Assembly: GCA_964419275.1 (NCBI GenBank)
Contig: CAYQOY010000001.1
Span: 15,218 to 79,217 of the forward strand
DNA length: 64,000 nt
Direction: 5' to 3'
DNA from: Candidatus Woesearchaeota archaeon
GTDB lineage: Archaea > Nanobdellota > Nanobdellia > Pacearchaeales > GW2011-AR1
In this document: positions 6,492 to 18,905 of the stretch, piece after piece
How the letters are laid out: each line of letters begins with the position of its first letter
How positions within the stretch are numbered: the stretch's first letter is position 1
The notes under the pieces: generated by a model
What the model was told of the DNA's origin: nothing
Seen by the model: only the letters and a program-made list of their open reading frames with translations
The model's database searches: none
Position numbers and translations under genes: made by a program

Positions 6492-7343
6492 TCAGGTTTT
6501 ATCCTCGGAATTCAACTTTAAGTCGTCGATTGGGCTTTTAATCTTCTTTAATTCTTCTGAAGAAACATGCGCATAAAGCTGGGTTGTGCTAAGATTGCTA
6601 TGCCCTAATAGTTCTTGGATTAATCTTATATCTACTTTATTTTCCAAGAGATGTGTTGCAAAGCTATGCCTTAGCGTGTGGGGATGAACATCTTTCTTTA
6701 TTTTAGCTGCAATTGCTGCTCTTTTGATTATTTTTTGAATGTTTCTTTCTGTAATTTTTCCGTTTCTTCCGCTGAAAAGGTAAATCTCTTTTCTTTGTTT
6801 TTGATTTTCTGCTTGCTGTTTAAGCTCTTCAATTAAAAATTCCGGGATATTAAACAGCCTATCTTTTCTCCCTTTTGCTTGTCTAGCATATCCTGTTTTT
6901 TCTTCAAAAGATAAATCTGAAACTTTTAGGTTAGTTAGTTCAGATACCCGAAATCCGCATGCGTAAAGTAAACTTACAATTAGTTTGCTTTTTTTATTAG
7001 TTATTAAATCAATAAGTCTCGTGACTTCTTCTTTTGTTAAAACGGGGGGAATCCTCCTTTCTTTTTTTGGACGTTTTATGCCCTCAGTAATATCCTCTTT
7101 TAGCAAATTAGAGTAAGCGTATTTTACTGCAGACAAAAAAACAATTATTGAGGGGGAAGACATATTGGATATCTTAGACGCAATAAAGTTCTTAACATCC
7201 TGATTTTTGACTTGTTCTGGGTTCTTACTGCAGAAGTCTAGAAGTTCACTGTTCGCTCTTACATAATTCCTAATAGTATGCTCAGAATTTTTTGAAATCT
7301 TAAGCTCTACTTTTAGTTTATCTAAAAATTCTTGCTTGTTCAT
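6492..7343 (-). CDS. xerA: tyrosine recombinase XerA-like (integrase family)
   Basis: C-terminal catalytic signature: ...ARQAKGRKDR..., HTLRHSFATHLLENKVDIRLIQELLGHSNLSTTQLYAHV (R, HxxR, H, nucleophile Y). Confidence 0.85.
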   Translation of the reverse strand: MNKQEFLDKLKVELKISKNSEHTIRNYVRANSELLDFCSKNPEQVKNQDVKNFIASKISNMSSPSIIVFLSAVKYAYSNLLKEDITEGIKRPKKERRIPPVLTKEEVTRLIDLITNKKSKLIVSLLYACGFRVSELTNLKVSDLSFEEKTGYARQAKGRKDRLFNIPEFLIEELKQQAENQKQRKEIYLFSGRNGKITERNIQKIIKRAAIAAKIKKDVHPHTLRHSFATHLLENKVDIRLIQELLGHSNLSTTQLYAHVSSEELKKIKSPIDDLKLNSEDKT

Positions 7344-7429
7344 CTGTGCCTCTTTTACCCTAAAATTGTACGAACTTTTTATATGTTATGAAATTTCACT
7401 TTTCGTATTTTACTTGTTTCAGACGCGGT

Positions 7430-7457
7430 CCAAACAGCTGTTTAAACAGCTGTTTGG
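7430..7457. promoter_or_regulatory. perfect 28-bp palindrome CCAAACAGCTG-TTTAAA-CAGCTGTTTGG (11-6-11; dif-like or regulator-binding site)
   Basis: Read directly from the sequence. Lies about 90 bp upstream of the xerA start, in the divergent xerA/RRM intergenic region. Confidence 0.4.
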
Positions 7458-7589
7458 CTTTTGATCAACCAATTTATGAATTTTTCAAAAGGCATAACCT
7501 TAAAAATCGTGATTTATTGGAAAATGTAGAATAAGTAAATCTTGTTCTGTAATTAAATAAAACGTAGATTAATCTACAAGGATCGCGAA

Positions 7590-7943
7590 ATGAGTAAGAA
7601 ACTTTATGTAGGAAACTTGAACTTTAGTATGGATCACCAAAAGCTGAAAGACGCTTTCTCTGAATTCGGAGAAATCGAAGAAGCTGTGATTATACAAGAT
7701 AAGTTCTCTGGAAGATCCAAAGGATTCGGTTTCGTAACCTTCAAACAAGATGCAGATGCTGACAAGGCAATTGCTGCAATGAATGAAAAAGAAATTGAAG
7801 GCAGAAAAATAACTGTAAACGAAGCTAGACCAATGGAAGATAGACCATCTAGACCTCCAAGAAGAGACTTTGGTGGAAGAGGCGGAAGAGATGGCGGAAG
7901 ACCAGGTTTTAACAGAGATAGACCCCCTAGAAGATTTAACTAA
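7590..7943 (+). CDS. RRM-domain RNA-binding protein with RGG/Arg-Gly-rich tail
   Basis: RNP-2 LYVGNL and RNP-1 KGFGFVTF motifs. C-terminus PSRPPRRDFGGRGGRDGGRPGFNRDRPPRR. Confidence 0.8.
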   Translation: MSKKLYVGNLNFSMDHQKLKDAFSEFGEIEEAVIIQDKFSGRSKGFGFVTFKQDADADKAIAAMNEKEIEGRKITVNEARPMEDRPSRPPRRDFGGRGGRDGGRPGFNRDRPPRRFN

Positions 7944-8027
7944 AATTAATTAGGAAATATCTTTAGCTAAAAGCTAAATTTTTTAATTTTTATTTTTTAA
8001 TTTTAAATAACAAAAGAGAAGAACAAT

Positions 8028-8783
8028 TTATTTGAACTGATTGTTTAGTTCTTCTTCGTTTTCTTTTAAGTAAACTAAAGAAGACTTAACAAAAGACTCA
8101 AAATCTTTACTTTTTTCATATAACTTGTTAAGTTCTGCTAAAATAAATTTGCCTTTCAGAGTAATATTATCTAAAAAAGAATAGTAAAGCCGTTCTTTAG
8201 GCAAGTTTAGTTCTGAAACTTCTTTGGAAAAAAGAATTCCCGGAGCTATCTCGCTAAGTTTCCAAATTAAATGTGGGTGCTCAAACTCTTGTTCGTTTAC
8301 TTCTGGAAAGATCTCTTTTATTTTCTTAAAAAACAAAAAATGTGAAAGTTCGTGCAAAATTACTATTTTTACCTGTTCTTCATTCATTTTCCAGTAAAGA
8401 TCAAAAGTCTGGTATTTTAGATATCTGGGACAAATTGGATTTAAGGTTATTCTAGCCTTAAACTCTGAAAACTCCGGGCTCCAAGAGGTTTGTATTCTTT
8501 CTTGAATCAGCTTCAAGAAATTCTCGTTTACTTCTTTCCAAGCACGAGTATATCTTCCTTTTGCAAGGGCTAGGTCCTTGCTTCTCTCTTTTTCCTTTTC
8601 TTGAAAAAAATCCCAAATTGTTTGAGACTTATTTTTAGAAGATTTTAAGGATTCTATTAATTCAGGATAAGCTCTTTTAATGGATTCGTGAAAATGATAC
8701 TGGGGGTTTACGACTTTTTCTAAAAAAGAGAGATAATCTTTAATATTAGCTATTTCAAAAGTTACCTTTGGAAAGTCCTGCAT
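8028..8783 (-). CDS. hypothetical protein with HExxH motif (putative zinc metallopeptidase)
   Basis: 251 aa. VILHELSHFLFF contains HELSH. No other recognisable domain. Confidence 0.35.
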   Translation of the reverse strand: MQDFPKVTFEIANIKDYLSFLEKVVNPQYHFHESIKRAYPELIESLKSSKNKSQTIWDFFQEKEKERSKDLALAKGRYTRAWKEVNENFLKLIQERIQTSWSPEFSEFKARITLNPICPRYLKYQTFDLYWKMNEEQVKIVILHELSHFLFFKKIKEIFPEVNEQEFEHPHLIWKLSEIAPGILFSKEVSELNLPKERLYYSFLDNITLKGKFILAELNKLYEKSKDFESFVKSSLVYLKENEEELNNQFK

Positions 8784-8817
8784 ATTATTTTACCTTTTAG
8801 AGAAATAAATATTTTTT

Positions 8818-8848
8818 GGTTGATGTGCACTTAGATTAACTTAGTGAA
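8818..8848. repeat. copy A (partial) of intergenic repeat GGTTG(A)TGCACTTAG(A/G)TTA(A/G)CTTAGTGA
   Basis: Matches the cores of copies B and C with 3 differences. Lies about 35 bp upstream of the 8783 start codon. Confidence 0.5.
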
Positions 8849-8923
8849 CACTGTTTTTTTGAGATGAAATTCTTTAGATTTTTGCCTAAAAATGTCGAGT
8901 TCGCATAATGTACGTTGTACGTA

Positions 8924-9020
8924 CTTTTTTAGTGTTTTTTCAGCTTTTTTCAAGGTTTTTTAGAGTTTTTCGCGGATTTTCTGGGTTTTTGAGATTTTTC
9001 TCAGCTTTTTTGAATTTTTG
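8924..9020. promoter_or_regulatory. about ten T5-6 tracts phased at ~10 bp (predicted intrinsically curved DNA) in a divergent promoter region
   Basis: ...gtactttttt agtgtttttt cagctttttt caaggtttttt agagttttt cgcggatttt ctgggttttt gagattttt ctcagctttttt gaattttt... Confidence 0.5.
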
Positions 9021-9044
9021 TGAGTCTTAATACAGCTTGCTTTC

Positions 9045-9140
9045 AAAAAATTATAAAAAACTATGTTTCTGACTGCGAAATTTTTTATCAATTTTCTCGC
9101 GCTTCCGGCAGGTTGTGCACTTAGGTTAGCTTAGTGAATA
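9045..9140. repeat. copy B of a ~95-bp direct repeat (TATA-like AAAATTATAAAAAAC ... TTTTTATCAATT.TCT...CTTCCGGCAGGTTGTGCACTTAGGTTAGCTTAGTGA)
   Basis: About 85% identical to copy C at 10313-10407. Ends about 38 bp before the ATG at 9178. Confidence 0.55.
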
Positions 9141-9177
9141 AACAGATTTTATTTGATTTTATTTTGTATCCTCTCAG

Positions 9178-10314
9178 ATGTTCTCATATATTTTTTTAAA
9201 TGAATTTTTCTATTTTTTCTGGATGATTATTAATTTAAAGAGCGAGACAGATCTTTCTGGATTTTACGTTGTTTATGAAGGAGCTGCAAATTTCGAGAAA
9301 AAAGGACAGAGGGGGATTTCTCATTTGCTAGAACACCTTATGGCTAATGACCTCTTCTCCGTTGAGGAAGAGATAATCAAAGATGGAATTGACCTTAATG
9401 CAGAAACATCCCAAAACGACATGGTCTTTTTTATTACCGGATTAGAAAAAAACCTTGCTAAGTGGAGGGAACCTCTTCTTTCTTCTTTAAACAGATTAAA
9501 TTTCCCAGAAGAAAATTTTGAAAAAGAAAAAAATGTTGTTTTAGTGGAATATTTACAAGGTGTTTCAGATTTAGAGTCTAATCATCTTTTGAATCTCTGG
9601 AGAAATACATTAAATGTTTATGGTCCTTGGGGGTTAAAGGCTGACTTAGAAGGTTTAACCTGGACAGATTGTCAAGAACATTATAACTCTAGGTTTACCA
9701 AACCTTCAAAAATTATTAATGTTTCAAAAAATTTTAATTATAAAGACGATTCCATTCAATTTGAAACGCGAAAGTCGGAAAAAAGAATTAAACTGGGGGA
9801 TTATTCCGCTCCTTTAGAAGTGCTTGAATTCTCTCCAGAAATGACTTCAATTATCTGTATGTCTCCTATTATTGAAGAAGACTTTGCTTACGTTGATTTT
9901 ATCACCGATTTGATTTCAAGTGACTTAAATTCCCCTCTTTTTAAGAAGATTCGAGATAGGGGGCTTGCTTATGACTTGACTATGTCGGAAGAAAGGATTA
10001 ACAGGCAGGGGATTATTCTTTTAGGAACTTCTGTTTTAACTGAAAAAATAGAAGAAACCCTTGAAACAGTTGAAGAAGTTCTAAAAAACCCGAAAGAGTA
10101 CCTCTCTGAACGCCGAATTGATTTGATTAAATCTTCCTTAAAGGCTAGACAAGAAAAAGAAGAAATTTTAAGATTTGCGAACATTGATGAGTATATTCAT
10201 CCCGCTGAATGGAACGTTTACAACATATTAAATAAGATAGATTTAGCTAAAATCCAGGAAGTTTACAACAAGTATTTTAATTTTGACAATTGGTATATTT
10301 CTTGTTGCCCTTAA
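9178..10314 (+). CDS. M16 (pitrilysin) family peptidase-like protein, short form
   Basis: Inverted zinc motif HxxEH in GISHLLEHLMANDLF with downstream E (NAETSQND). 378 aa. Start may be the internal Met at 9223. Confidence 0.55.
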   Translation: MFSYIFLNEFFYFFWMIINLKSETDLSGFYVVYEGAANFEKKGQRGISHLLEHLMANDLFSVEEEIIKDGIDLNAETSQNDMVFFITGLEKNLAKWREPLLSSLNRLNFPEENFEKEKNVVLVEYLQGVSDLESNHLLNLWRNTLNVYGPWGLKADLEGLTWTDCQEHYNSRFTKPSKIINVSKNFNYKDDSIQFETRKSEKRIKLGDYSAPLEVLEFSPEMTSIICMSPIIEEDFAYVDFITDLISSDLNSPLFKKIRDRGLAYDLTMSEERINRQGIILLGTSVLTEKIEETLETVEEVLKNPKEYLSERRIDLIKSSLKARQEKEEILRFANIDEYIHPAEWNVYNILNKIDLAKIQEVYNKYFNFDNWYISCCP

Positions 10315-10407
10315 AAATTATAAAAAACCCTATTTTTGACACGAGATTTTTTTATCAATTCTCTAGAACTTCCGGCAGGTTGTGCACTTAGGTTAGCTTA
10401 GTGATAA
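10313..10407. repeat. copy C of the ~95-bp direct repeat
   Basis: Alignment to 9045-9140 is visible by eye. The core CTTCCGGCAGGTTGTGCACTTAGGTTAGCTTAGTGA is identical in the two copies. Confidence 0.55.
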
Positions 10408-10415
10408 TGAAAAAA

Positions 10416-10700
10416 GGCTGTTTGTCGCTGTTTTTTTGCTTTTAATTTTTTCTGAAAATTAAATTTTGTGGGTTAATAGAGAAGGTAATTTTATCGACGG
10501 AGAACTGACTGTTTAAGGGTGTTTAAACACCTGTTTAGAATTGCTTTTGGGTGTTTGTCGCTGTTTATCGCTGTTTAAACAGGCTGTTTGCCTTCTTTTT
10601 TTGACATAAACAGCTGTTTAAGTCTGTTTGTTAAGTGTTTATAGCTGTTTGAACTTATTTTTTCTGTAAATTTTATGAAAAATATTATGCTGTTTACGTC
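10416..10700. repeat. array of at least 12 CTGTTT / GTTTAAAC / AAACAGCTGTTT motifs
   Basis: Examples: ggctgtttgtcgctgttt, gtgtttaaacacctgtttag, gctgtttaaacaggctgtttg, aaacagctgtttaag, agctgtttg, gctgtttacg. All lie upstream of the ORF starting at 10716. Confidence 0.6.
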
Positions 10701-10715
10701 GATATTCTCCGACGG

Positions 10716-11372
10716 GTGCAAAACATTTTTAAACTGTTTATTATAATAACTATTATGTTTTGGTTTTTTAATAGAAAAAAAGAGGCAGAAGATATCAAAA
10801 AAGATGTTAAAGCGGGCTTTGAATCTGTAAAAAAAGACATTACATCTATTAGTGGATGGATAAATTACCTTGATTCTGAAAAAAATATTACCAAAAAAGA
10901 TGTTTTAGAGATAAAAGAGGATTTGTCTTCGATAAAAAAGGAACTTGAAGGATTAAAAAACGTTGTTTCTTTTATGGGCGAAGTTAAAACAAACAGGGTG
11001 TTTAAAACACCCGGGCGGGTGTTTGATAAACAAACAGCTGTTTTGCCTGTTCAAACAGCTGTTCAAACAGCTGTTCAAACACCAAATTTAGACAGATTTT
11101 CAACAACTGAAAGAGCAATCGTGTGGGTATTGCTAAATTCAGAGCTAAGGCTAAGTTATGATGACTTAGCTGCTGTCCTGGGAAAAGAGAGATCGACAAT
11201 TAGAGGTCAAATAAATTCGATAAAGCAAAAAAGTGACATAATTGAAGAAGTAGTTGAGTCAAATGGCAAAAAGAGAGTGTTTATACCTGAAGAAATCAAG
11301 GAAAAACTGCTCAAAAAGGCAAAAGTGAGAGTTAGCAGTACTAAAAAAGATAAAAAAAATGAAAAAAGTTGA
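10716..11372 (+). CDS. membrane-anchored coiled-coil protein with C-terminal winged-helix (HTH) domain
   Basis: N-terminal hydrophobic helix (LFIIITIMFWFF). Coiled-coil stretch DIKKDVKAGFESVKKDI...IKKELEGLKN. Low-complexity QTAVLPVQTAVQTAVQT linker. wHTH-like TERAIVWVLLNSELRLSYDDLAAVLGKERSTIRGQINSIKQK. Confidence 0.5.
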   Translation: MQNIFKLFIIITIMFWFFNRKKEAEDIKKDVKAGFESVKKDITSISGWINYLDSEKNITKKDVLEIKEDLSSIKKELEGLKNVVSFMGEVKTNRVFKTPGRVFDKQTAVLPVQTAVQTAVQTPNLDRFSTTERAIVWVLLNSELRLSYDDLAAVLGKERSTIRGQINSIKQKSDIIEEVVESNGKKRVFIPEEIKEKLLKKAKVRVSSTKKDKKNEKS

Positions 11373-11755
11373 GAAAAAATGAATCTGAAAAAGAAAAAAG
11401 TGAGTAATGGAGGGATTATTTCAAAAAACAGTAAAAGTGAGCATAAGGGTTAATTAAAAATCAACAAAAAATATGTAAAAAATGAGGGTTTTGTAGTGGG
11501 TAAAAATCCTTTAGATTCAACGAGAAAACGCCAATAAAGATCGAAAAAAGTCATAGAAATAGTTTATCGGTTAACCGATTAGATTATTTGAGGGCCTAAT
11601 TTCTCTTAGTTTATCGACGAGAAAATTTAAAAAAGAGTGAAAAGAAAATTTCAAAAGAATAAAAAGTTAGACTTTTCTTTGAATTTTTTGAAGGATTTCA
11701 TTTTATTTTTACGACGAGAAAGGGTCTGCTGAGAACAATTAAAAAAGGCTCAAAA

Positions 11756-12592
11756 TCAAAGATCTCTTAGTTGAATTATTGCGTTAAGTGAAGCAATTTT
11801 CTTTAAATTTTCGGAAATAGAAATTTTAATTTGTTTATTATTTACTTTTTCTTTTTGAATAGGGACACCTTTTTTTATCAATTTACCGACGTAATCTCTT
11901 ACAGAACTTTCACTAAGATTCAATTTCTGAGATAAACTTCGGTAATCTGAAAATCCTTGCTCTTCATCATACTGGTAAATTGCAGAAAAAACCAAAAACT
12001 CTTGCTCGGTAAGTTCTTTGAACTTTAACCTAACTTCTTTTTTTAGACTATCTAAGGAATTTAAAATTTCTAAAGCATTGTTAAGAGACTTGCTTTCTTT
12101 GTTGAATCCCCTTGTTTCAGAGATAAACCCTTCTTTTTGTGTCTGTTGGTTTGTCTGTTGGTTTGTCTGTTTGTCTGTTGGAACCCCTCCATTTCCAGTG
12201 GAAAAGCTCATATTTTGAGCCTTAGAAGGCTTAAAAGGGTAATTATCTGTTGGATTATCTGTTGGACTTGTTGGGTTAACCTGTCTGTTTGTCTGTTTTT
12301 CTAAGTTATCTGTCGGACTATCTTTTGAATGCTCTGAATACTTTTCAGAACAATTTTCGTCTAATCTTTCAGGAGAATACTGAAATTTAGAGTTGTATTC
12401 TGCACTATTTAAGTTAAAACCTTCTTTGGAAGAATAATCTGATTTCTTAAGGTAACTCTCTTCTTGATTAAGAAGAATCTCATCAAGTAAATCTCTTAAC
12501 TGATTTAATTGAAATTTAATCAAATCCATCTCGTTTCTCAAAGAAGCGATATCTGTTTTAACCTTGTCAAATGCCTCTTTGATTGGTTCCAT
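11756..12592 (-). CDS. coiled-coil protein with low-complexity linker and C-terminal winged-helix domain
   Basis: N-terminal IASLRNEMDLIKFQLNQLRDLLDE coiled coil. PTDNPTDN / QTNQQTNQQTQ repeats. C-terminal LTEQEFLVFSAIYQ...SDYRSLSQKLNLSESSVRDYVGKLIKKGV wHTH. Confidence 0.5.
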   Translation of the reverse strand: MEPIKEAFDKVKTDIASLRNEMDLIKFQLNQLRDLLDEILLNQEESYLKKSDYSSKEGFNLNSAEYNSKFQYSPERLDENCSEKYSEHSKDSPTDNLEKQTNRQVNPTSPTDNPTDNYPFKPSKAQNMSFSTGNGGVPTDKQTNQQTNQQTQKEGFISETRGFNKESKSLNNALEILNSLDSLKKEVRLKFKELTEQEFLVFSAIYQYDEEQGFSDYRSLSQKLNLSESSVRDYVGKLIKKGVPIQKEKVNNKQIKISISENLKKIASLNAIIQLRDL

Positions 12593-12623
12593 TTAATTGG
12601 TTGAAACAAGGAGTATAAAAAGA

Positions 12624-13403
12624 TTAATGTTGTTTATTAATCAGAATTCGAATTATCCTTTTGGTTTCTTCAGGGTCTTTTACTTGTATGCAGTCAACTC
12701 CTGTGGAAATCACAGGGTAATCATTTCCCCCAGGAAATAAGGCATCGCCTAGGAATAACATCTCTTCTTTTTTAAAGTTTAACTGCTCTTGAATCTTTGC
12801 AATCCCATACGCCTTGTCTATGCCTTTTTTAGTTACATCTAAAGACGTTGACCCTCCGATTCTAACAGAAAAGTCAGGTAATTTTTCTTGGAGTTTTTCT
12901 TGGAGTTTTTTTCTTTTTTCTGTGGTAGGGTCAAAAGACTCTTTTAATTCGCGAGGAGCTAGCTGACCTAGTGCAGAAAATGTGATCTGGCTTTCTCGAT
13001 CTTCAATTACTTCTCCATAAACTTTTTGAGGATGGATATACCCTGTTTCTTTGAAAACTTGGTGAAACGCAGAAAAAATCTTTTCTTTTTCTTCCTGTTG
13101 CAAAACATTTTCATAAACCTTTTGCCAATTTCCTTGATTGTGCTTATAAAAGCTTGTTGAACAGGTGGGAAAGATAAACAACCTCGAAAAGTCTGTTTCT
13201 TGACTCTGGTTTTTCAAGATTCCTAAAAATTGCTTCTCAAACTGAGGAAAACCCCCTCCAGAAATGACTGCGACACTCCTATTTTTCAAAAGCTCACTTA
13301 ATAGCCTTGCCATCTCTTTATCCATTTCAGACTTGCTTAAAGCTAGAGTCCCGTCTAAATCAAAAATAATCAACTTTTTGGAAGTTAATTCAAGATTATA
13401 CAT
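12624..13403 (-). CDS. HAD-IIB (Cof-like) sugar-phosphatase family hydrolase
   Basis: LIIFDLDGTL motif I, VISGG motif II, K...LFLGDALFPGGNDYPV motifs III/IV. Confidence 0.6.
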   Translation of the reverse strand: MYNLELTSKKLIIFDLDGTLALSKSEMDKEMARLLSELLKNRSVAVISGGGFPQFEKQFLGILKNQSQETDFSRLFIFPTCSTSFYKHNQGNWQKVYENVLQQEEKEKIFSAFHQVFKETGYIHPQKVYGEVIEDRESQITFSALGQLAPRELKESFDPTTEKRKKLQEKLQEKLPDFSVRIGGSTSLDVTKKGIDKAYGIAKIQEQLNFKKEEMLFLGDALFPGGNDYPVISTGVDCIQVKDPEETKRIIRILINKQH

Positions 13404-13414
13404 TTTGGTTTTTA

Positions 13415-13681
13415 TTATTGAATCTTTTTATATGCTTCGTAAGACTTACTGGAAAGTTTCCATCTAGCTCTTTTTTTATAACTAACTCCCTGAGGGTTTT
13501 TTTTGATTTGATCAACTAATCCTTTTTTAGATAAATCTATTAAAAGCCTTTTCACAAATTCCTCATCTCTAGCGATTTCTTTGGAAATTTGAGAGATGAA
13601 TAAGGGGCGAGGGTTATTCTCAAATAAAAGTGCCAGGATTTGTTCAGAAATTTTGGTTTTCTTTTCTTCAGAGATTCGCAT
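13415..13681 (-). CDS. small winged-helix DNA-binding protein (putative transcriptional regulator)
   Basis: 88 aa. ISQISKEIARDEEFVKRLLIDLSKKGLV recognition-helix-like segment followed by a basic wing (KKRARWKL). Confidence 0.45.
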   Translation of the reverse strand: MRISEEKKTKISEQILALLFENNPRPLFISQISKEIARDEEFVKRLLIDLSKKGLVDQIKKNPQGVSYKKRARWKLSSKSYEAYKKIQ

Positions 13682-13765
13682 AGGGCTTTAATACCGAATA
13701 ACTTTTTAAACGTATGTTTGATATTAAGAAACTCTTTAAACCAATTTCATCTAAGATTAAATGGA

Positions 13766-14812
13766 ATGAATCTTGAATTTAACTCTGGAAAAAAAGAAGA
13801 CGCTCAAAAATTTATAAGAAAACTGAAAAAAGAAGATAATCTTGCAATAATCAGCCACAACGATTTAGATGGGCTTGCTTCAGCTAAAATTTTAGAAAGA
13901 GTTAGTTCTCCTAGGTTAATTGAATTAGTTTCTTATGATAAAATCTCCGGGTTAGTGCCTTCTCTTAAAAAAAATAAAATAAACAAGATTATTTTTTCAG
14001 ATTTGTCTTTAGATTTTCCTGGAAGCCTTTCTAGCTTTGAATCTCTTGCAGAAATATTAGTTATAGACCATCATCAATTCAAAAACGACCTTAACTCAAA
14101 TAAAACTACTTTCTTGAATGCCCAGGGATATTGTGCTTCGTATATTTGTTATTCTCTTTTCTCAGAAAATGCAAATTTAAAGAACTTAGAATGGCTTGTC
14201 GCTCTTGCTTCTTTATCAGACTGGCTTTATTCAAAGAATGTTGATTGGATTAAACAAGTTTATGAAAGCCAGGGAGAAACATTTGAATTAAATGAAATTC
14301 AAAAAGGAAAGTTTTGGGAAAGTGTTTTAACAGTTTCGGACGGATTAATTTACTTCAAAGATAACCCGACAAAAGCTTACGAATTAATTAATTCCGAAAA
14401 ATTTGATTTAAAAGAAATAACCCCTTATGTTCAGAAAGTCAGGCAAGATTTGGATTTTAATTTAGATAGATTTGAAAAAGAAAAAGAGCCTATTCCCGGA
14501 GGATTTTTTTATGAAATGAAATCTGAATATGATCTGAATTCTAGATTCGCTTCTTTGATTAGTGGAAAAACACCTAATGAGACTTATGTTATTTCTACTA
14601 AGAATCATACCCTTTACAGAATCTCTGCAAGAAGAAGCGACGGAAAAAGGGACATGTCCGAGTTAGTTAAGTATCTCACTGAAGATTTAACTTTGATCAA
14701 TGCCGGAGGGCATGTTGCAGCAGCAGGATGTAATGTTCTTGAAACAGAGTATATTTCTTTTAAAGAAAAATTGAAACAGATTCCCGAAGAGATGTTTGTT
14801 TTGAAAAAATAA
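13766..14812 (+). CDS. DHH/DHHA1 family phosphoesterase (NrnA/RecJ-like nuclease)
   Basis: Motif I ISHNDLDGLASA, motif III LVIDHHQF, DHHA1 GGHVAAAG. Start set at the internal ATG 13766 because the longer ORF overlaps the convergent wHTH gene. Confidence 0.7.
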   Translation: MNLEFNSGKKEDAQKFIRKLKKEDNLAIISHNDLDGLASAKILERVSSPRLIELVSYDKISGLVPSLKKNKINKIIFSDLSLDFPGSLSSFESLAEILVIDHHQFKNDLNSNKTTFLNAQGYCASYICYSLFSENANLKNLEWLVALASLSDWLYSKNVDWIKQVYESQGETFELNEIQKGKFWESVLTVSDGLIYFKDNPTKAYELINSEKFDLKEITPYVQKVRQDLDFNLDRFEKEKEPIPGGFFYEMKSEYDLNSRFASLISGKTPNETYVISTKNHTLYRISARRSDGKRDMSELVKYLTEDLTLINAGGHVAAAGCNVLETEYISFKEKLKQIPEEMFVLKK

Positions 14813-14852
14813 AGCTGTTTTTAATGAGATCTGGAGAAAAAAATAAGAATCT

Positions 14853-15272
14853 TTATTTTTTTGCCTTGTTTTCTTTTCGAATCATTGGCAAGGGAACATG
14901 TAAGGGGAGATTTATTTCCTCTTCTAACTGCATTGCCTTAAGATTTGCTTTTCTTAAAACTGCGTTGAAAACAAAGATCTTGAAATCTTCTTCTACCTTT
15001 TTATCTTTCCACTGTTTTAATACTTCTTTGGACTGTCGTGGATCTAAAGAGATTAACAAATCTCCTTTAAATTCAATTTTAGCATAATTTGGAGAATAAT
15101 TGATTGCGTAAGAGAATTTAACCCCTAAAAATTCGTCTCTAGTTTTAAACAAATCTGCTTTTACTGTAGAAATTTCAGAAATATCAATTTTAGTCTCTAT
15201 TTTAACATTCTCTGCTTTATCTGCAAGCTTTTCTACGCTTATTTTTTTGAAGTTTAAACCGACTAATTTCAT
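14853..15272 (-). CDS. hypothetical protein
   Basis: 139 aa ORF with clean boundaries. No motif recognised. Confidence 0.3.
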   Translation of the reverse strand: MKLVGLNFKKISVEKLADKAENVKIETKIDISEISTVKADLFKTRDEFLGVKFSYAINYSPNYAKIEFKGDLLISLDPRQSKEVLKQWKDKKVEEDFKIFVFNAVLRKANLKAMQLEEEINLPLHVPLPMIRKENKAKK

Positions 15273-15318
15273 TTTATTTTAGTTAATTCTTTTTAATTTG
15301 GTTAGAATCTCTGAAGCT

Positions 15319-15624
15319 TTAAACTAAATCTTCTTCAGAAACGATCACAAAGTCCCCTATTGCAATAATAGAGTTATAAGGGATAAGTATGTCATTTGTG
15401 TGGGTTCTTTCAAGGTTAAGATTCTTGACATAAGCAGTGGAGTCTTTAACTACAAGGTTAATTAACTCTCCAGACTTAGTTTCAAAAGTAATATCCTTTA
15501 CAGCACCTAGTCTTTTTCCCTCTTTTGTGACAATCATCTTGCCCAAAATCGAATTAAATGGGTTTTTTTCTTGTTGCATGATTGATTGAAAGGGAATTGA
15601 TATATAAATTTTTCTATAACTCAA
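15319..15624 (-). CDS. PRC-barrel domain protein
   Basis: 101 aa. GKMIVTKEGKRLGAVKDITFETKSGELINLVV matches the PRC-barrel core pattern. Confidence 0.45.
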   Translation of the reverse strand: MSYRKIYISIPFQSIMQQEKNPFNSILGKMIVTKEGKRLGAVKDITFETKSGELINLVVKDSTAYVKNLNLERTHTNDILIPYNSIIAIGDFVIVSEEDLV

Positions 15625-15755
15625 GATAACGATTGTTTTAATGCTCTCGAAGAAGGTGAGCTAGATTTAATGATTTAGTTCTTCTTTTAGAAACAATTTA
15701 AAAAAAGAAGAAAAAAGGAGATTAATAACGGAGATTTAATTGTAATTAACCTAAA

Positions 15756-16004
15756 CCCCCTCACCCCTCAATTTCCAGTAGAAACATTTAAAAAAGAAAA
15801 ATTGATTTTTATTTTTTATTTTTTATTTATAAAATTATATATTATATATTATATATATTATAATAGTATAATAATATAAAGTTAATCGGTTTTCCATAAG
15901 AAATCTTGGTGTCTTTCTTATTCAGTAGTTATAATCCTTTATATAATATTTTAAGTTTTTTCGTTGGAAAAATTTATAATGAAGATGTTCCACTGGAAAT
16001 GAAC
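15756..16004. promoter_or_regulatory. oriC: replication origin (oriC): two inverted ORB (origin recognition box) elements flanking an AT-rich DUE, immediately upstream of orc1/cdc6
   Basis: Right ORB 15978-16004: GTTCCACTGGAAATGAACGTGTGGGAG. Left ORB (bottom strand of 15756-15788): TTTCTACTGGAAATTGAGGGGTGAGGGG. Both match the archaeal ORB core TTCCAGTGGAAAC followed by a G-string. Between them lies ~190 bp of >85% AT (ttatatattatatattatatatattataat). Confidence 0.65.
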
Positions 16005-16046
16005 GTGTGGGAGATATTATAAAAGTAAAATAAATAAAAAAATAAA

Positions 16047-17276
16047 ATGGGAGTAATTTTAGACGAAATTTTTGAATCTTTTGATAAAAATAAAATCTTC
16101 AAAAATAAAGAAGTTTTACAATCTAATTACAAACCTGAAGATATTCTTCATAGAGATGAGCATATCAAACAAATTGCTTCTATTCTTGCACCGGTGTTAA
16201 GAGGAGAAAAATGCAGTAACCTTTTCCTTTATGGAAAAACCGGAACAGGAAAGACCCTTTCAATTCAATATGTTCGAGACGAGATGCTTAAACGTGTTAA
16301 AAAAGAAGCAGAATTTATTCTCAAGATAGAATATCTTAATTGTAAATTAAAAAAGATCTCAGATACAGATTATAGAATTTTAGCAGAGTTAATTAAAAAA
16401 TTAGGGGGGCAAGTTCCCGACACAGGGCTTCCAACAGAAAGAGTTTATAATAAGTTCATCAATTTAATCGATTCGGAAAAGCAAGTCATTGTTCTTATTT
16501 TAGACGAAATCGATCAGGTTGTTAAAAAGATTTCTAGCGATTTTCTGTATAACTTAACGCGTCTTAATAACGAACTTTCTAAATCTAAACTATGTATTGT
16601 GGGAATAAGTAACGATCTAACTTTCTTAGATGAAATAGACCCCAGAGTTAGGAGTTCTCTTTCTGAAGAAGAGATTGTTTTTTTACCCTATAATGCAATT
16701 CAGCTTCAAGAAATTTTAAGAAAAAGGGCTTCAGAGGCATTCAAGGAGAATGTTCTTCAAGAAGGAGTTATTGAAAAGTGTGCTGCTTTTTCTGCTAAAG
16801 GTTATGGGGATGCTCGAAGAGCATTAGATTTGTTAAGAGTTGCAGGAGAACTTGCAGAGAGAGATAATTCTGAAAAAATAACTTTTAAGCATATAGATGA
16901 AGCAAATAAAAAATTAGAAAGTGACAAAGTTTTAGAAATAATTGAGTCTGAGCCGAAGCCTTTCCATTACGTTCTTAATTCAATAATTCAATTAACCGAG
17001 CAAAGAGTAAAAGAGGGGAAATCTTCTCATGAACCCATTTTTACCGGAGACGTTTATAATAACTATGCAGATTTTTGCAATAGAAATAAAATAGAAGTTC
17101 TAACACAAAGGAGAGTCTCAGATATAATTCAAGAATTTGATATGTTTGGAATAATCAATGTAAGGGTTGTTTCAAAAGGGAGAGGAGGAAGAATGAGAGA
17201 AATTAATTTAGTATTGCCTCAAGAAGTTATCTCTAAGGTAAAAGAGATTATTAGAAATTCAGTAGATTTTAGATGA
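16047..17276 (+). CDS. orc1: Orc1/Cdc6 replication initiator
   Basis: Walker A LYGKTGTGKT, Walker B VLILDEID, sensor ISND. C-terminal winged helix. 409 aa. Confidence 0.9.
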   Translation: MGVILDEIFESFDKNKIFKNKEVLQSNYKPEDILHRDEHIKQIASILAPVLRGEKCSNLFLYGKTGTGKTLSIQYVRDEMLKRVKKEAEFILKIEYLNCKLKKISDTDYRILAELIKKLGGQVPDTGLPTERVYNKFINLIDSEKQVIVLILDEIDQVVKKISSDFLYNLTRLNNELSKSKLCIVGISNDLTFLDEIDPRVRSSLSEEEIVFLPYNAIQLQEILRKRASEAFKENVLQEGVIEKCAAFSAKGYGDARRALDLLRVAGELAERDNSEKITFKHIDEANKKLESDKVLEIIESEPKPFHYVLNSIIQLTEQRVKEGKSSHEPIFTGDVYNNYADFCNRNKIEVLTQRRVSDIIQEFDMFGIINVRVVSKGRGGRMREINLVLPQEVISKVKEIIRNSVDFR

Positions 17277-17321: not shown

Positions 17322-18905
17322 ATGGATGAAAAAGAAATTTTGAAATTTTGTTTGAAAAAAGGGATTCTTTTAGACAAAGAAGTTCTTAGTTTACTTAGTG
17401 AAGCCCTTGAGTCTGAAGCAGAAATGAAAGTTATTGAAAAAATAAGAGAAAATAGCCAAAAAAAGTTTATTACGAAAAATGTTTTCTGCGAGAATATAAA
17501 GCAAGTAAATCAGGTTTTTTCTTCTCTTTCTGAAGATAAAAAGAAAAAACTTGAAACGCTTAAGATTAAATTAGGGTTAGAACTGGAAATTTCTAAAGAA
17601 TCCGTCTCTTTGCAAAAAGCAACCCCGGAAAGTAGAGAATTTGCAGAAAAAAAAGATTTCGATGAAGATGAAAAAGTTAAAATCAAATCTTTGATCTCTT
17701 GTGTAAACAAAAAACCAGAAGTTGACGATTTTGTGAAATTCTTTAAAAGCAGGCTTACAAAAATGAGAACCGTTCTTCAAACTCATGCGAATTTAAAAGA
17801 TTTGGTTTCAATCAATAAACTTTCTGGAAATAGACACAAGGTATGTATTATCGGAATTGTTAGCTCTAAAAAAACAACCCAAAATAAGAACATTCTTTTA
17901 GAAGTTGAAGATTTGACAGGGAAAACAAGAGTATTAATTAATCAGAATCGTCCGGGACTTTACGAGAAAGGGGAAGAGATAGCTTTAGATTCGGTTATAG
18001 GGGTCGTTGGCGCAGGAAATGGAGAGATTATTTTTGCGGAAGATGTTATTTATCCAGATGCGATGATCACTGAAAGAAAAAGAGCGCCAACAGAAGAGAT
18101 TGCTGCATTTATTGGAGATGTTCATTACGGAAGTAAGCTTTTTATGAAAGAAAACTTTGTGAAATTTATAGAATACCTTAATGATGTTTCTTCTCCTAGC
18201 TCAGAAGCATCTAAAATAAAGTATCTTTTTGTTGTCGGAGACTTGGTCGCAGGAGTAGGAATTTATCCAGAGCAAGAGCCAGACTTAGAAGTCAAAGACT
18301 TAGAAAAACAATTTCAAGGCATCGCGGAACTTCTTGGAAATATTAGAAAAGACATAACAATTATTCTTTCTCCGGGAAATCACGACGGAGTTAGATTGAT
18401 GGAACCTCAGCCTCTTTTTGATAAAAGATACGCGGAACCTTTGTATAACTTAAAAAATGTGATCATCACGACAAATCCTGCTTACGCCACTATCGCTTGT
18501 TCAAAAAAGTTTTCTGGTTTCGAGGTTTTAACTTATCATGGATATTCTTATCCTTTTTATGTCGACAAAATTCCTTCTTTAATTAAAGTAGATGCAATAA
18601 ATGCCCCGGATAAAATAATGGCTTATCTTTTGAAAAATCGTCATCTTGCTCCAACCCACGCTTCTGTTCAATATTACCCTCTGGAAGAAGACCCTCTAGT
18701 TATAGAAAAAGTTCCAGATATTTTTGTTTCAGGGCACATTCACAAATCTGCTGTTTCATATTATAATAATATTCTAATGATTTCTTGTTCTGCTTGGGAA
18801 TCGATAACCGCTTTTCAGGAGAAAATGGGAAATAAACCAGATTTTTGTAAAGTCCCTATTGTAAATTTAAAAAATCGAACAGTTAAAATTTTGGATTTTG
18901 AATAA
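17322..18905 (+). CDS. polB: DNA polymerase II (PolD) small subunit DP1
   Basis: OB-fold region plus calcineurin-like phosphoesterase motifs GDVHYG, GDLVAG, GNHD, GHIH. 527 aa. Confidence 0.85.
   Translation: MDEKEILKFCLKKGILLDKEVLSLLSEALESEAEMKVIEKIRENSQKKFITKNVFCENIKQVNQVFSSLSEDKKKKLETLKIKLGLELEISKESVSLQKATPESREFAEKKDFDEDEKVKIKSLISCVNKKPEVDDFVKFFKSRLTKMRTVLQTHANLKDLVSINKLSGNRHKVCIIGIVSSKKTTQNKNILLEVEDLTGKTRVLINQNRPGLYEKGEEIALDSVIGVVGAGNGEIIFAEDVIYPDAMITERKRAPTEEIAAFIGDVHYGSKLFMKENFVKFIEYLNDVSSPSSEASKIKYLFVVGDLVAGVGIYPEQEPDLEVKDLEKQFQGIAELLGNIRKDITIILSPGNHDGVRLMEPQPLFDKRYAEPLYNLKNVIITTNPAYATIACSKKFSGFEVLTYHGYSYPFYVDKIPSLIKVDAINAPDKIMAYLLKNRHLAPTHASVQYYPLEEDPLVIEKVPDIFVSGHIHKSAVSYYNNILMISCSAWESITAFQEKMGNKPDFCKVPIVNLKNRTVKILDFE

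What the first reader, a model, noticed from the sequence alone, without database searches (positions are those of the whole stretch)
10416..11090. Dense array of CTGTTT / AAACAGCTGTTT palindromic motifs upstream of, and continuing into, a membrane-anchored wHTH protein gene
At least 12 CTGTTT hexamers occur in ~290 bp (10416-10700), many as palindromes (GTGTTTAAACAC, CTGTTTAAACAG, AAACAGCTGTTT). Three more CAAACAGCTGTT copies sit inside the coding sequence (11030-11090), where they encode the QTAVQTAVQT linker. CAGCTG is expected only ~5 times by chance in a 64-kb window of this composition, but is concentrated here and at 7430-7457. This looks like a multi-site operator for a DNA-binding protein (autoregulation by the adjacent wHTH proteins is the simplest guess). 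Alternatively it is a nucleoid-organising or partition-like site cluster.
Basis: seen in the sequence. Interest (0 to 1): 0.65.

Follow-up and report, generated by a model that had tools for sequence, protein, structure and literature searches.

The report
Binding-site array written into its regulator's gene
A dense, deeply conserved array of short protein-binding DNA motifs lies upstream of, and inside the coding sequence of, a DNA-binding protein gene next to the replication origin of a tiny (DPANN) archaeon; the part of the protein encoded there looks conserved mainly because the DNA itself is the functional element.

Summary
G[C/G]TGTTT[A/G] half-sites occur 18 times in 320 bp (10418-10740; at most 7 in simulations), 9 more times inside the gene (10991-11082), and as a 28-bp palindrome at 7430-7457. 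The window is a Pacearchaeota-like archaeon. In 80 related species the same array lies upstream of the orthologous gene, at 12 times background. Neighbouring sites are spaced exactly 10 bp apart or abut as palindromes. The gene (true start 10755) encodes a long helix, a disordered linker and a winged helix. The intragenic sites lie in the linker codons. Synonymous positions there are frozen (Ala GCT 100% against 33% background), and the motif is read in all three frames, so selection acts on the DNA. Distant subfamilies with a different recognition helix carry different frozen repeats at the same place (CGTTCATGAACG; AAGTGAC). The locus sits about 3 kb from oriC/orc1 in 57 of 59 genomes, and the paralogous neighbour carries a full Orc1 recognition box in its own linker codons. 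Best reading: a two-block operator for the gene's own product (cooperative binding, looping, autoregulation), possibly with an origin-linked role. Binding is inferred, not shown. No report was found in the literature searched.

The parts
10417..10740 (+). Upstream block of motif A (half-site G[C/G]TGTTT[A/G]). It holds 15 sites on the + strand and 3 on the - strand, many exactly 10 bp apart.
   Evidence: The orthologous blocks in 79 loci hold a mean of 9.2 sites per 400 bp, against 0.74 in the background. The 10-bp spacing is shown.
10571..10619 (.). Conserved core of the array: a triple site (CTGTTTAAACAGGCTGTTTG), then a T-tract, then AAACAGCTGTTT.
   Evidence: The triple-site core is present in 51 of 79 loci at a median position of -176. 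In 32 loci it is followed by another AAACAS site, and 29 of those have a T5+ tract in between.
10720..10733 (+). BRE/TATA-like promoter element (AAAACATTTTTAAA), 22-35 nt upstream of ATG 10755. This implies a leaderless or short-leader mRNA.
   Evidence: Conserved at the same distance in the related loci. Coordinates. The promoter function is inferred.
10755..11372 (+). wHTH1 gene (205 aa): residues 2-77 form one long helix, 78-111 are disordered, and 112-186 form a winged helix-turn-helix.
   Evidence: More than 2400 homologues, and the listed hits of 63-100% identity carry Pacearchaeota/Nanoarchaeota names where named. AF2 model. Foldseek matches MarR/MepR/ArsR/Lrs14-like wHTH proteins.
10989..11083 (.). 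Intragenic block of motif A, in the linker codons (about 79-110). It holds 9 half-sites, mostly on the - strand.
   Evidence: Synonymous-codon entropy is 0.20-0.33 of expectation for codons 81-112, against 0.6-0.94 elsewhere. The motif is read in three frames. There is no conserved RNA structure.
7430..7457 (.). Secondary motif-A site: the perfect 28-bp palindrome CCAAACAGCTGTTTAAACAGCTGTTTGG. It lies 89 bp upstream of the xerA-like gene (6492-7343, - strand) and 158 bp upstream of the RRM gene (7590-7943, + strand).
   Evidence: Dimeric motif-A sites lie 16-330 bp upstream of xerA in 7 loci.
10494..10500 (+). Motif B (TTATCGACGR). Other window copies lie at about 10699-10715 (inverted pair abutting the BRE/TATA), 11614-11620 and 11712-11718.
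   Evidence: YCGACGR occurs almost only at -300..-200, -100..0, +100..+200 and +800..+1000 relative to the gene start across 81 loci. Coordinates.
11756..12592 (-). wHTH2, a likely paralogue with the same architecture (pairwise BLASTP is not significant), convergent with wHTH1. Its linker codons carry TCTGTTKG/(CTGT)n repeats (12140-12181 and 12245-12300).
   Evidence: Present in 69 of 69 loci. Pfam DnaD_N and HTH_36/HTH_24 hits. Codons 97-152 are frozen, with an entropy ratio as low as 0.04. Sequence.
12182..12206 (+). A full origin recognition box (CCCC...TTTCCAGTGGAAA) inside the linker codons of wHTH2 (peptide S-T-G-N-x-G-V).
   Evidence: Codons TCC 71/71, GGA 71/71, GGG 70/71 and GTT 67/67. 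It closely matches the oriC box at 15774. ORB-like elements lie at this position in most loci.
13415..13681 (-). wHTH88, an 88-aa protein consisting of a winged helix only, conserved in the cluster.
   Evidence: Weak Rrf2/TrmB hits. Present in 66 of 69 loci.
14853..15272 (-). Conserved 139-aa neighbour with a SecB-like fold.
   Evidence: AF2 pLDDT 86.5. Foldseek matches SecB and the Rv1957 chaperone, TM 0.5-0.58, E about 4e-4. It is also adjacent in the distant subfamily loci.
15765..16015 (.). Canonical oriC: an ORB at 15774, an AT-rich unwinding element at about 15790-15880, and an inverted ORB at 15988, directly upstream of orc1/cdc6 (16047-17276), polD DP1 (17322-18905) and DP2 (18898-22437).

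Best explanation
The CTGTTT array is a two-block cluster of binding sites on double-stranded DNA for a sequence-specific dimeric protein. The most likely binder is the product of the gene it surrounds (wHTH1).

Shown:
- The half-site G[C/G]TGTTT[A/G] is arranged as direct repeats exactly 10 bp apart (one face of the helix) and as abutting palindromes.
- One block lies 100-300 bp upstream of the promoter. The other lies in the DNA that encodes the protein's disordered linker.
- Selection there acts on the nucleotides.

Inferred:
- wHTH1 dimerises or oligomerises through its 75-residue N-terminal helix.
- Its two winged helices read the palindromes, and extra half-sites recruit further copies cooperatively.
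- Complexes on the two blocks, about 450 bp apart and in opposite predominant orientation, bridge and loop out the promoter and the 5' half of the gene. Alternatively, the intragenic block acts as a roadblock to transcription.
- Either way the result is negative autoregulation. In some species the neighbouring xerA promoter is co-regulated.
- Because the cluster lies beside oriC and the likely paralogue carries an Orc1 box in the same position, the circuit is probably tied to replication or cell-cycle control.
For: 1. The array is conserved. Upstream site density in 79 loci averages 9.2 per 400 bp, against 0.74 in the background. De novo 8-mers such as GGTGTTTA and GGCTGTTT are 137-224 times enriched. 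The positional peak is at -300..-100.
2. The geometry fits double-stranded DNA. The commonest spacing of adjacent same-strand pairs is exactly 10 bp (96 pairs, with secondary peaks near 20 and 29-30). Inverted pairs abut with a gap of 0-1 nt.
3. Selection acts on the nucleotides inside the coding sequence.
   - Thr is ACA in 95-99% of cases (background 47%).
   - Ala is GCT in 100% (33%), and Gly is GGT in 100% (21%).
   - Val82 and Val89 are GTG in 98% and 89% (10%).
   - The synonymous-entropy ratio is 0.20-0.33 in the linker codons, against 0.86-0.94 in the invariant wHTH domain.
   - The dimeric site is read in three frames: QT[AG]V 171 times, KQ[VL]F 48 times and TN[RS][VL]F 25 times.
   - This region is predicted to be disordered.
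4. The gene product is a plausible binder: it has a MarR/Lrs14-like winged helix.
5. The embedded motif changes with the recognition helix.
   - Homologues with an ST[ILV]RGQ[IVM]N helix keep QT-rich linkers down to about 31% identity. Subfamilies with other helices lose them.
   - The VTxRRHINDI subfamily has CGTTCATGAACG 3-4 times at +245..+380, with TTC/AAC/GTT codons in 18 of 18 cases against 34/25/45% background. That palindrome occurs nowhere else within 4 kb either side.
   - The single NYSTVKNIIY locus examined has AAGTGAC five times, read in two frames.
6. The motif is specific to this locus: 419 dimeric hits inside it, against 34 clusters in 1.25 Mb outside, 7 of which lie just upstream of xerA.
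Against: - No binding experiment exists. The assignment of the binder rests on co-location and on covariation across only three subfamilies, one of which is a single locus.
- Most upstream sites lie 100-300 bp from the TATA box rather than over it. Only the window and its closest relative among the loci inspected have a site between the TATA box and the ATG. This is unusual for a simple archaeal repressor.
- In the likely paralogue wHTH2, the frozen linker DNA includes a box for a different protein, Orc1. Linker-embedded sites therefore need not be self-sites.
- A second conserved motif (B) and, in about 8 species, a full ORB share the region. The element may belong to a larger origin-linked nucleoprotein structure.
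- The distant subfamily has no upstream array.
Confidence: 0.55

Rival explanations
1. The array is an origin-linked architectural element, iteron-like or centromere-like. Its protein complex would act in replication initiation control, or in tethering or segregating the origin region, and autoregulation would be at most a side effect.
For: - The locus lies a median 3.2 kb from orc1 in 57 of 59 genomes. The order is conserved: array, wHTH1, wHTH2, wHTH88, SecB-like gene, oriC, orc1, polD.
- A full ORB is frozen into the linker codons of wHTH2 in 71 of 71 species. In about 8 species another full ORB lies between the array and the wHTH1 promoter.
- Direct repeats phased at 10 bp resemble parC/tubC centromeres and plasmid iterons.
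- wHTH2 hits DnaD_N and HTH_36, domains found in replication initiators.
Against: - A complete canonical oriC (two inverted ORBs around an AT-rich element) lies directly upstream of orc1, and no motif A occurs there.
- The cluster contains no ParA, ParM or TubZ-type NTPase, helicase or primase gene.
- No distinct unwinding element adjoins either block.
- The distant subfamily keeps intragenic sites although orc1 is not within 4 kb.
Confidence: 0.25
2. The sites are bound by a different protein of the cluster (wHTH2, wHTH88) or by an unlinked factor that regulates wHTH1. Self-binding would then be wrong.
For: - Three winged-helix proteins are co-conserved with the array, so synteny cannot tell them apart.
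- The linker DNA of wHTH2 carries a site for a non-self protein, Orc1.
- In several species the linker of wHTH2 contains CTGTTTG repeats resembling motif A.
Against: - The embedded motif changes together with the recognition helix of the protein that carries it, in three subfamilies.
- In six of the distant-subfamily loci the sites persist although tblastn finds no wHTH2 relative, and none of the ten has a wHTH88 relative.
Confidence: 0.13
3. The element acts at the RNA level. The repeats would form mRNA structure, or bind an RNA-binding protein such as the nearby RRM protein, to control translation or stability.
For: - The window's linker RNA folds far better than shuffled controls (z = -4.5).
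- The upstream block is mostly CTGTTT and the intragenic block mostly AAACAG, so the two are complementary.
- A promoter-like element with a hairpin lies just upstream of the array, so the array might be transcribed.
Against: - RNAalifold on 81 orthologues gives -1.2 kcal/mol, with no covariation term and no compensatory pairs.
- Direct repeats spaced exactly 10 bp apart match the DNA helical repeat, not RNA pairing.
- The conserved TATA box 22-35 nt before the ATG leaves the upstream block outside the main mRNA.
- Rfam gives no hit.
Confidence: 0.04
4. The palindromes are recombination sites (dif- or att-like) for the neighbouring XerA-type or serine recombinases.
For: - The site at 7430-7457 has the 11-6-11 geometry of Xer sites and lies 89 bp from xerA.
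- Recombinase genes recur in the variable region upstream of the array.
- SSV-type integrases are a precedent for a recombination site inside an ORF (abstract of PMC7253208).
Against: - Archaeal dif sites are single-copy, lie far from oriC and are not next to xerA (PMC2958812). Here there are dozens of copies beside oriC.
- The xerA-proximal sites differ in arrangement between species.
- Arrays of half-sites phased at 10 bp are not recombinase substrates.
Confidence: 0.03

Closest known systems
Lambdoid phage origin inside the O gene (oriλ and the O initiator)
   Same: Repeated binding sites for a winged-helix-type DNA-binding protein lie in the middle of that protein's own gene. Adding or losing repeats adds or removes residues in the protein (PMC7466680).
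   Different: - No AT-rich unwinding element adjoins the sites here.
- wHTH1 has no detectable homology to O or Rep initiators.
- A second block lies upstream of the promoter.
- A separate Orc1-type origin lies about 3-5 kb away.
- A replication role has not been shown.
Plasmid centromeres bound by small adaptor proteins (parC/ParR of R1, tubC/TubR of pBtoxis). This comparison is from general knowledge.
   Same: Arrays of about 10-12-bp direct repeats lie upstream of the operon that encodes their binder. TubR is a winged helix. The complex forms on one face of the DNA and also autoregulates.
   Different: No ParM, TubZ or ParA partner gene is present. Part of the array lies inside the coding sequence. 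The setting is chromosomal and origin-proximal in an archaeon.
parS within spo0J/parB, and the bipartite bacterial oriC flanking dnaA. This comparison is from general knowledge.
   Same: Binding sites for an origin-region protein lie inside or on both sides of its own gene, next to the replication origin.
   Different: The protein families are different. Here there are many phased half-sites, family-wide frozen synonymous positions, and lineage-specific motifs.
MarR/Lrs14/Sta1-type archaeal winged-helix regulators that autoregulate
   Same: The fold of the C-terminal domain is the same, with weak Sta1 hits (and Lrs14 for wHTH2) in NCBIfam. The targets are palindromic and include the regulator's own gene.
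   Different: - wHTH1 has a long N-terminal helix and a disordered linker.
- It is below threshold for every Pfam and NCBIfam model.
- Its operators lie 100-300 bp upstream and inside the coding sequence, rather than over the TATA box.
Archaeal origin recognition boxes bound by Orc1/Cdc6
   Same: They are clustered, conserved protein-binding repeats close to orc1.
   Different: Motif A has no similarity to the ORB dyad TTCCAGTGGAAA. True ORBs are present separately, at 12193, 15774 and 15988.

Membership tests
Archaeal ORB/oriC element | Sequence matches the ORB dyad (TTCCAGTGGAAA), with or without a G-string | tested here: not met
   Motif A is G[CG]TGTTT[AG]. ORB-like matches in the window lie only at 12193, 15774 and 15988.
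Archaeal ORB/oriC element | Flanks an AT-rich unwinding element directly beside orc1/cdc6 | tested here: not met
   The unwinding element and the inverted ORBs lie at 15765-16015. The array lies 5.3 kb away in the window and about 3 kb away in relatives.
Iteron origin inside the initiator gene (λ O type) | Repeated binding sites located within the coding sequence of the putative binder | tested here: met
   Nine half-sites lie in codons 79-110, with frozen synonymous positions.
Iteron origin inside the initiator gene (λ O type) | The protein is homologous to known replication initiators (Phage_rep_O, Rep_3, DnaD-like) | tested here: not met
   wHTH1 gives only sub-threshold HTH_11 and Sta1 hits and no sequence match in the PDB. 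The neighbouring wHTH2, not wHTH1, passes the DnaD_N threshold at 28.8 bits against a cut-off of 27.
Iteron origin inside the initiator gene (λ O type) | An adjacent AT-rich unwinding region, and replication initiation at the site | not testable with these tools
   No outstanding AT-rich tract follows the intragenic block. Initiation mapping needs an experiment or read-depth data.
Plasmid-type centromere (parC/ParR, tubC/TubR) | An array of short direct repeats at helical phasing, upstream of the operon that encodes the binder | tested here: met
   The commonest spacing of adjacent same-strand pairs is exactly 10 bp (96 pairs). The array lies at -300..-100.
Plasmid-type centromere (parC/ParR, tubC/TubR) | A cognate NTPase motor (ParM, TubZ or ParA) encoded in the same cluster | tested here: not met
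   The cluster genes are wHTH1, wHTH2, wHTH88 and a SecB-like protein. Pfam and NCBIfam find no NTPase domain in the conserved cluster genes between the array and orc1.
MarR/Lrs14-like autoregulated wHTH regulators | Winged helix-turn-helix fold | tested here: met
   AF2 pLDDT is 79-91 for residues about 111-180. Foldseek matches MepR, MarR, AbfR2 and ST1889 with E from 2e-4 to 4e-3.
MarR/Lrs14-like autoregulated wHTH regulators | Passes the family profile thresholds (Pfam or NCBIfam) | tested here: not met
   The best hits are HTH_11 at 16.8 bits (cut-off 25) and Sta1 at 16.2 bits (cut-off 80).
MarR/Lrs14-like autoregulated wHTH regulators | The protein binds the operator at its own gene | not testable with these tools
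   The only evidence is indirect: the motif changes with the recognition helix.
Xer/dif recombination site | 11-bp inverted arms separated by a 6-bp spacer | tested here: met
   7430-7457 reads CCAAACAGCTG-TTTAAA-CAGCTGTTTGG. The geometry is as described in PMC2958812.
Xer/dif recombination site | A single site per replicon, in the terminus region and not next to xerA | tested here: not met
   The same motif occurs dozens of times, and the site lies 8.6 kb from oriC and 89 bp from xerA.
Known RNA families (Rfam) | A match at or above the gathering score | tested here: not met
   There are only two sub-threshold chance hits in 7300-16100.

The most novel reading that the evidence does not exclude
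A family of archaeal coiled-coil/winged-helix proteins writes its own operator, or iteron array, into the DNA that encodes its disordered interdomain linker.

- The linker peptide would be conserved because the DNA is the functional element.
- The embedded motif would co-evolve with the recognition helix: AAACAGCTGTTT, CGTTCATGAACG and AAGTGAC in three subfamilies.
- In the origin-proximal likely paralogue, the same slot holds an Orc1 recognition box.

Together these genes would form a previously unrecognised regulatory or architectural module attached to the replication origin of Pacearchaeota-type DPANN archaea.
Probability: 0.45. Interest if true: 0.85.

Novelty: new variant of a known kind. 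Interest (0 to 1): 0.74.

Why it matters
1. It would be a clear, family-wide case of dual coding. A stretch that looks like the best-conserved peptide of a protein, yet is predicted to be disordered, appears to be conserved for its DNA. This matters for reading conservation in linkers generally.

2. It identifies conserved cis-elements and candidate regulators beside the replication origin in DPANN archaea. These organisms are uncultivated, have very small genomes and few regulators, and their replication and cell-cycle control is essentially unstudied. The elements are motif A, motif B and an ORB inside a gene. The candidate regulators are three winged-helix proteins, with a SecB-like protein as a further conserved neighbour.

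3. It gives directly testable predictions. Each subfamily's protein should bind the repeat embedded in its own gene. These tests can be done with recombinant proteins alone, without cultivation.

Tried and rejected
- **Array as the replication origin.** Rejected. Canonical ORBs and an unwinding element lie upstream of orc1 at 15765-16015, and motif A is absent there.
- **Coding copies as a by-product of a QTAV peptide repeat plus AT-rich codon usage.** Rejected. Synonymous positions are frozen, including rare codons, and the motif is read in three frames.
- **Conserved RNA structure.** The single-sequence fold is strong, but the 81-sequence consensus fold is essentially nil. Rfam gives nothing.
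- **Transmembrane anchor.** It depends on the GTG 10716 start, which overlaps the conserved promoter. Homologues start at MFW.
- **Pairwise BLASTP between the cluster's wHTH proteins.** wHTH1 against wHTH2, and wHTH88 against wHTH2, gave no significant alignment. wHTH1 and wHTH2 are linked only by shared architecture and motifs seen by eye.
- **PDB sequence search for wHTH1.** Nothing significant.
- **Some 'secondary' motif hits upstream.** These turned out to be a coding coincidence in serine recombinases (peptide DKQLFEQ).
- **Upstream arrays in the distant FMNVQ subfamily.** None found. Only the intragenic palindromes are present.
- **Homologue search for subfamily P0239.** It returned only the query itself, so that subfamily rests on one locus.
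- **Literature searches.** Searches on DPANN origins, ORBs in coding regions, the TDRQT peptide motif and origin-associated proteins found no description of this system.
Full report
**Observation.** The region was read directly.
- On the + strand, CTGTTT starts at 10418, 10428, 10509, 10531, 10561, 10571, 10584, 10614, 10624, 10645, 10690 and 10734. GTGTTT starts at 10519, 10551 and 10635. The complementary AAACA[CG] occurs at 10525, 10577 and 10608.
- Inside the ORF there are nine more half-sites between 10991 and 11082, including three copies of CAAACAGCTGTT.
- [CG]TGTTT, counted on both strands, gives 18 hits in 320 bp. Second-order Markov simulations of the window gave a densest 320-bp window of 4.2 on average and never more than 7.
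- AAACAGCTGTTT with up to one mismatch matches 7 times against 0.54 expected. GSTGTTTR matches 34 times against 6.8, and 21 of those lie in 10417-11083 or 7431-7456.
It lies between a XerA-like recombinase gene and an RRM-protein gene.

**Context.**
- The window is 33% G+C.
- It encodes Orc1/Cdc6 (16047-17276) followed by both subunits of DNA polymerase D, so it is archaeal.
- The intergenic DNA just upstream of orc1 holds a textbook origin: TTTCCAGTAGAAAC preceded by CCCC at 15774, an extremely AT-rich stretch, and an inverted TTCCACTGGAAA at 15988. The CTGTTT array is therefore not the canonical origin. It lies 5.3 kb from it.
- The gene behind the array has more than 2400 homologues. All the listed ones with names come from Pacearchaeota, Nanoarchaeota or 'Woesearchaeota' MAGs, at 63-91% identity.
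- These homologues start at the ATG at 10755 (MFWFF...).

**Conservation of the array.** I fetched 80 loci, one per species, around homologues of the gene.
- In the 400 bp upstream of the gene, the hexamer family occurs 9.2 times on average, against 0.74 per 400 bp in the rest of the same loci. Of 79 loci, 73 have five or more copies.
- An unbiased k-mer comparison recovers the motif on its own. GGTGTTTA is enriched 224-fold, GGCTGTTT 137-fold and ACAGGCTG 204-fold.
- Sites peak between -300 and -100, with a 2.5:1 bias to the + strand. A second peak lies at +200 to +350, inside the gene, with the opposite bias.
- The position-weight summary gives G-[C/G]-T-G-T-T-T-[A/G].
- The commonest spacing of adjacent same-strand sites is exactly 10 bp (96 pairs), with secondary peaks near 20 and 29-30. 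Inverted neighbours abut with a gap of 0 or 1 nt.
- A core, [CG]TGTTT-AAACAS-STGTTT, then a T-tract, then AAACAS, recurs at about -176.
- The number and order of sites differ between species while the motif does not. Together with the helical phasing, this is the signature of a protein-binding array on duplex DNA.

**The coding-sequence copies are selected as DNA.** An AF2 model built on 20 homologues predicts one long helix (residues 2-77), a disordered segment (78-111, pLDDT below 50), and a confident winged helix-turn-helix (residues 112-186, pLDDT about 79-91). The winged helix resembles MarR/MepR/ArsR/Lrs14-type regulators. The intragenic sites fall exactly in the disordered segment, yet that segment is the most conserved part of the protein.

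Codon analysis over 81 orthologues explains why:

| Residue (in the linker codons) | Codon and share | Local background |
|---|---|---|
| Thr | ACA, 95-99% | 47% |
| Ala | GCT, 45/45, 51/51 and 41/41 | 33% |
| Gly | GGT, 42/42 | 21% |
| Val82 / Val89 | GTG, 98% / 89% | 10% |
| Arg81 | AGG, 93% | 25% |
| Gln88 | CAG, 96% | 33% |

- Synonymous-codon entropy falls to 0.20-0.33 of expectation for codons 81-112. It stays at 0.86-0.94 in the invariant winged-helix domain.
- The dimeric site AAACAS(N)STGTT is read in all three frames: as QT[AG]V (171 times), KQ[VL]F (48) and TN[RS][VL]F (25). Of 81 genes, 61 use at least two frames.
- The variable residue in QTxV is Ala, Gly or Pro (GCT, GGT, CCT). 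These are the amino acids whose codons fit the degenerate S positions of the DNA motif.
- A conserved RNA structure does not explain this. The window's RNA folds well (z = -4.5). However, the consensus fold of the 81 sequences is -1.2 kcal/mol with no compensatory pairs, and Rfam gives nothing.

**Who binds?** Synteny cannot decide. wHTH1, a convergent likely paralogue wHTH2 (11756-12592), and an 88-residue winged-helix protein (13415-13681) are all co-conserved (69/69 and 66/69 loci). Evidence for self-binding comes from wider relatives.
- A search of 1.8 billion cluster representatives finds only 242 clusters, so this is a small, clade-restricted family.
- Relatives with an ST[ILV]RGQ[IVM]N recognition helix keep QT-rich linkers down to about 31% identity. 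Relatives with other helices lack them.
- The most distant group (helix VTxRRHINDI) has the linker peptide FMNVQSFMNVQ.
  - In eight distinct metagenomic loci this is always encoded TCG TTC ATG AAC GTT CAA. That gives the palindrome CGTTCATGAACG 3-4 times at +245 to +380.
  - TTC, AAC and GTT are used in 18 of 18 cases, against 34%, 25% and 45% background.
  - The palindrome occurs nowhere else within 4 kb, and there is no upstream array.
- The one locus examined from a third group (helix NYSTVKNIIY) has five AAGTGAC repeats in its linker DNA, read in two frames (KVT and KSD), plus GTGAC-N4-GTCAC.
- So the family-wide, ancestral feature is a cluster of lineage-specific repeats in the linker-coding DNA. 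These repeats change when the recognition helix changes. This is what self-recognition predicts. It remains an inference from three groups, one of which is a single locus.

**Specificity and extra targets.**
- Dimeric motif-A sites occur 419 times within -450..+620 of the gene in the 81 loci. Only 34 clusters occur in the remaining 1.25 Mb.
- Seven of these lie 16-330 bp upstream of xerA, including the window's 28-bp palindrome. Several others are a coding coincidence in serine recombinases.
- The palindrome has the 11-6-11 geometry of Xer sites. However, archaeal dif sites are single-copy, lie far from oriC and are not beside xerA (PMC2958812). I read it as a shared operator, not as dif.

**The wider locus.**
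- The gene order is conserved: array, wHTH1, wHTH2, wHTH88, a 139-residue protein, oriC, orc1, polD. orc1 lies a median 3.2 kb downstream in 57 of 59 loci with enough flank.
- A second motif, TTATCGACGR, is almost confined to four positions in the locus: -300..-200, abutting the TATA box, +100..+200 inside the gene, and the wHTH1/wHTH2 intergenic region.
- wHTH2 shows the same phenomenon more strongly. Codons 129-152 are frozen: TCC 71/71 against 7% background, GGG 70/71, GAC 63/63, with an entropy ratio of 0.04.
- The wHTH2 DNA they spell is ATTTCCACTGGAAATGAAGGGGTTCC followed by (ACAG)n. This is a complete origin recognition box with a G-string. In the window it lies at 12182-12206 and closely matches the oriC box at 15774.
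- In about eight species another full ORB lies between the motif-A array and the wHTH1 promoter.
- The 139-residue neighbour has a SecB-like fold. It also accompanies the distant subfamily, where orc1 is not nearby.

**Mechanism.**

Shown:
- A conserved, helically phased, two-block array of sites.
- Nucleotide-level selection in the linker codons.
- A winged-helix product.
- Motif and helix changing together across subfamilies.
- Restriction of the motif to this locus.
- Proximity to the origin.

Inferred:
- wHTH1 dimers or oligomers, formed through the long N-terminal helix, bind the palindromes and spread cooperatively over the phased half-sites.
- The upstream and intragenic blocks, about 450 bp apart and in opposite predominant orientation, are bridged. 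This loops out the promoter. Alternatively, the intragenic block blocks elongation.
- Either way the result is negative autoregulation, with xerA co-regulated in some lineages.

I put this at 0.55. The main rival (0.25) is that the complex is primarily an origin-linked architectural element, iteron-like or centromere-like.
- It is weakened by the complete canonical oriC nearby, by the absence of any motor or helicase partner, and by the distant subfamily that keeps intragenic sites away from orc1.
- The two readings are not mutually exclusive.

**Novelty.** Operators, iterons and centromere arrays are known kinds of element. Binding sites inside the binder's own gene have precedents (λ O; parS in spo0J).

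What I could not find described is any of the following:
- this family;
- the family-wide embedding of lineage-specific sites in the linker-coding DNA with frozen synonymous positions;
- an Orc1 box embedded in a gene's linker codons;
- this origin-proximal module in DPANN archaea.

I classify it as a new variant of a known kind, with high interest.

Noticed in passing
window 12182-12206 (inside wHTH2, 11756-12592, - strand): A complete origin recognition box (CCCC...TTTCCAGTGGAAA) is encoded in the linker codons of wHTH2 (peptide STGNxGV). Its synonymous positions are frozen in 71 of 71 species, and it closely matches the oriC box at 15774. It is followed by (ACAG)n/TCTGTTKG repeats, which encode TDRQ/TNQQ.
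   Followed up: partly
window 10494-10500, ~10699-10715, 11614-11620, 11712-11718; related loci L001-L080: A second conserved motif, TTATCGACGR. Across 81 loci it is almost confined to four positions around wHTH1: -300..-200, abutting the BRE/TATA, +100..+200 inside the coding sequence (where it encodes LSSIK), and the intergenic region downstream. The binder is unknown.
   Followed up: partly
window 8825, 9115 and 10382 (+ strand); 50 of 81 loci: A conserved element of about 70 nt: a TATA-like AAATTTTTTATCAATT, about 28 nt, then GTTGTGCACTWAGGTTAnCTTAGTG (a hairpin). It is always on the same strand as wHTH1 and often present twice. In the window and in L001 two copies flank the M16 peptidase gene (9178-10314). 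One copy lies just upstream of the CTGTTT array. Its function is unknown; it could be a promoter plus 5' hairpin, or an insertion boundary.
   Followed up: partly
window 8925-9035: About ten T5-6 tracts phased every 10-11 bp, in an ORF-free stretch. This is the classic signature of intrinsically bent DNA.
   Followed up: no
window 14853-15272 (- strand): A conserved 139-residue protein with no family hit but a confident SecB-like fold (pLDDT 86.5; SecB and the Rv1957 chaperone, TM 0.5-0.58). It neighbours wHTH1-family genes even in distant subfamilies that are not near orc1. It might chaperone their disordered linkers, by analogy with the SecB-like chaperone of the M. tuberculosis HigA1 antitoxin.
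   Followed up: partly
L007, L011, L035, L042, L046, L058, L059 at about -120..-140 from the wHTH1 start: In about eight species a full ORB (TTTCCAyTGGAAAtgcnGGGGCTTCGACAC) lies between the motif-A array and the wHTH1 promoter. Its distal part resembles motif B.
   Followed up: no
L008 7380-8754; L072 6522-8489; window 6492-7343: The region upstream of the array varies between species and repeatedly holds recombinase genes: XerA-like in 27 of 58 loci, and serine recombinases in others. It may be an insertion hotspot next to the origin cluster.
   Followed up: no
window 6815-6822 and 6851-6858 (inside xerA): An inverted pair of GCTGTTTA sites 36 bp apart inside the xerA coding sequence. This may be chance.
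   Followed up: no
window 12624-13403 and 13640-14812: tblastn finds a relative of the phosphomannomutase-like HAD gene in none of the 80 related loci, and of the DHH/DHHA1 (RecJ/GAN-like) gene in only one, so in this genome they appear to be inserted into the otherwise conserved cluster. This stretches the distance from the array to orc1 from about 3.2 kb to 5.3 kb.
   Followed up: no
window 7590-7943: An RRM-domain protein with an RGG-rich tail, in an archaeal genome, divergent from xerA. The two share the intergenic region that holds the 28-bp motif-A palindrome.
   Followed up: no
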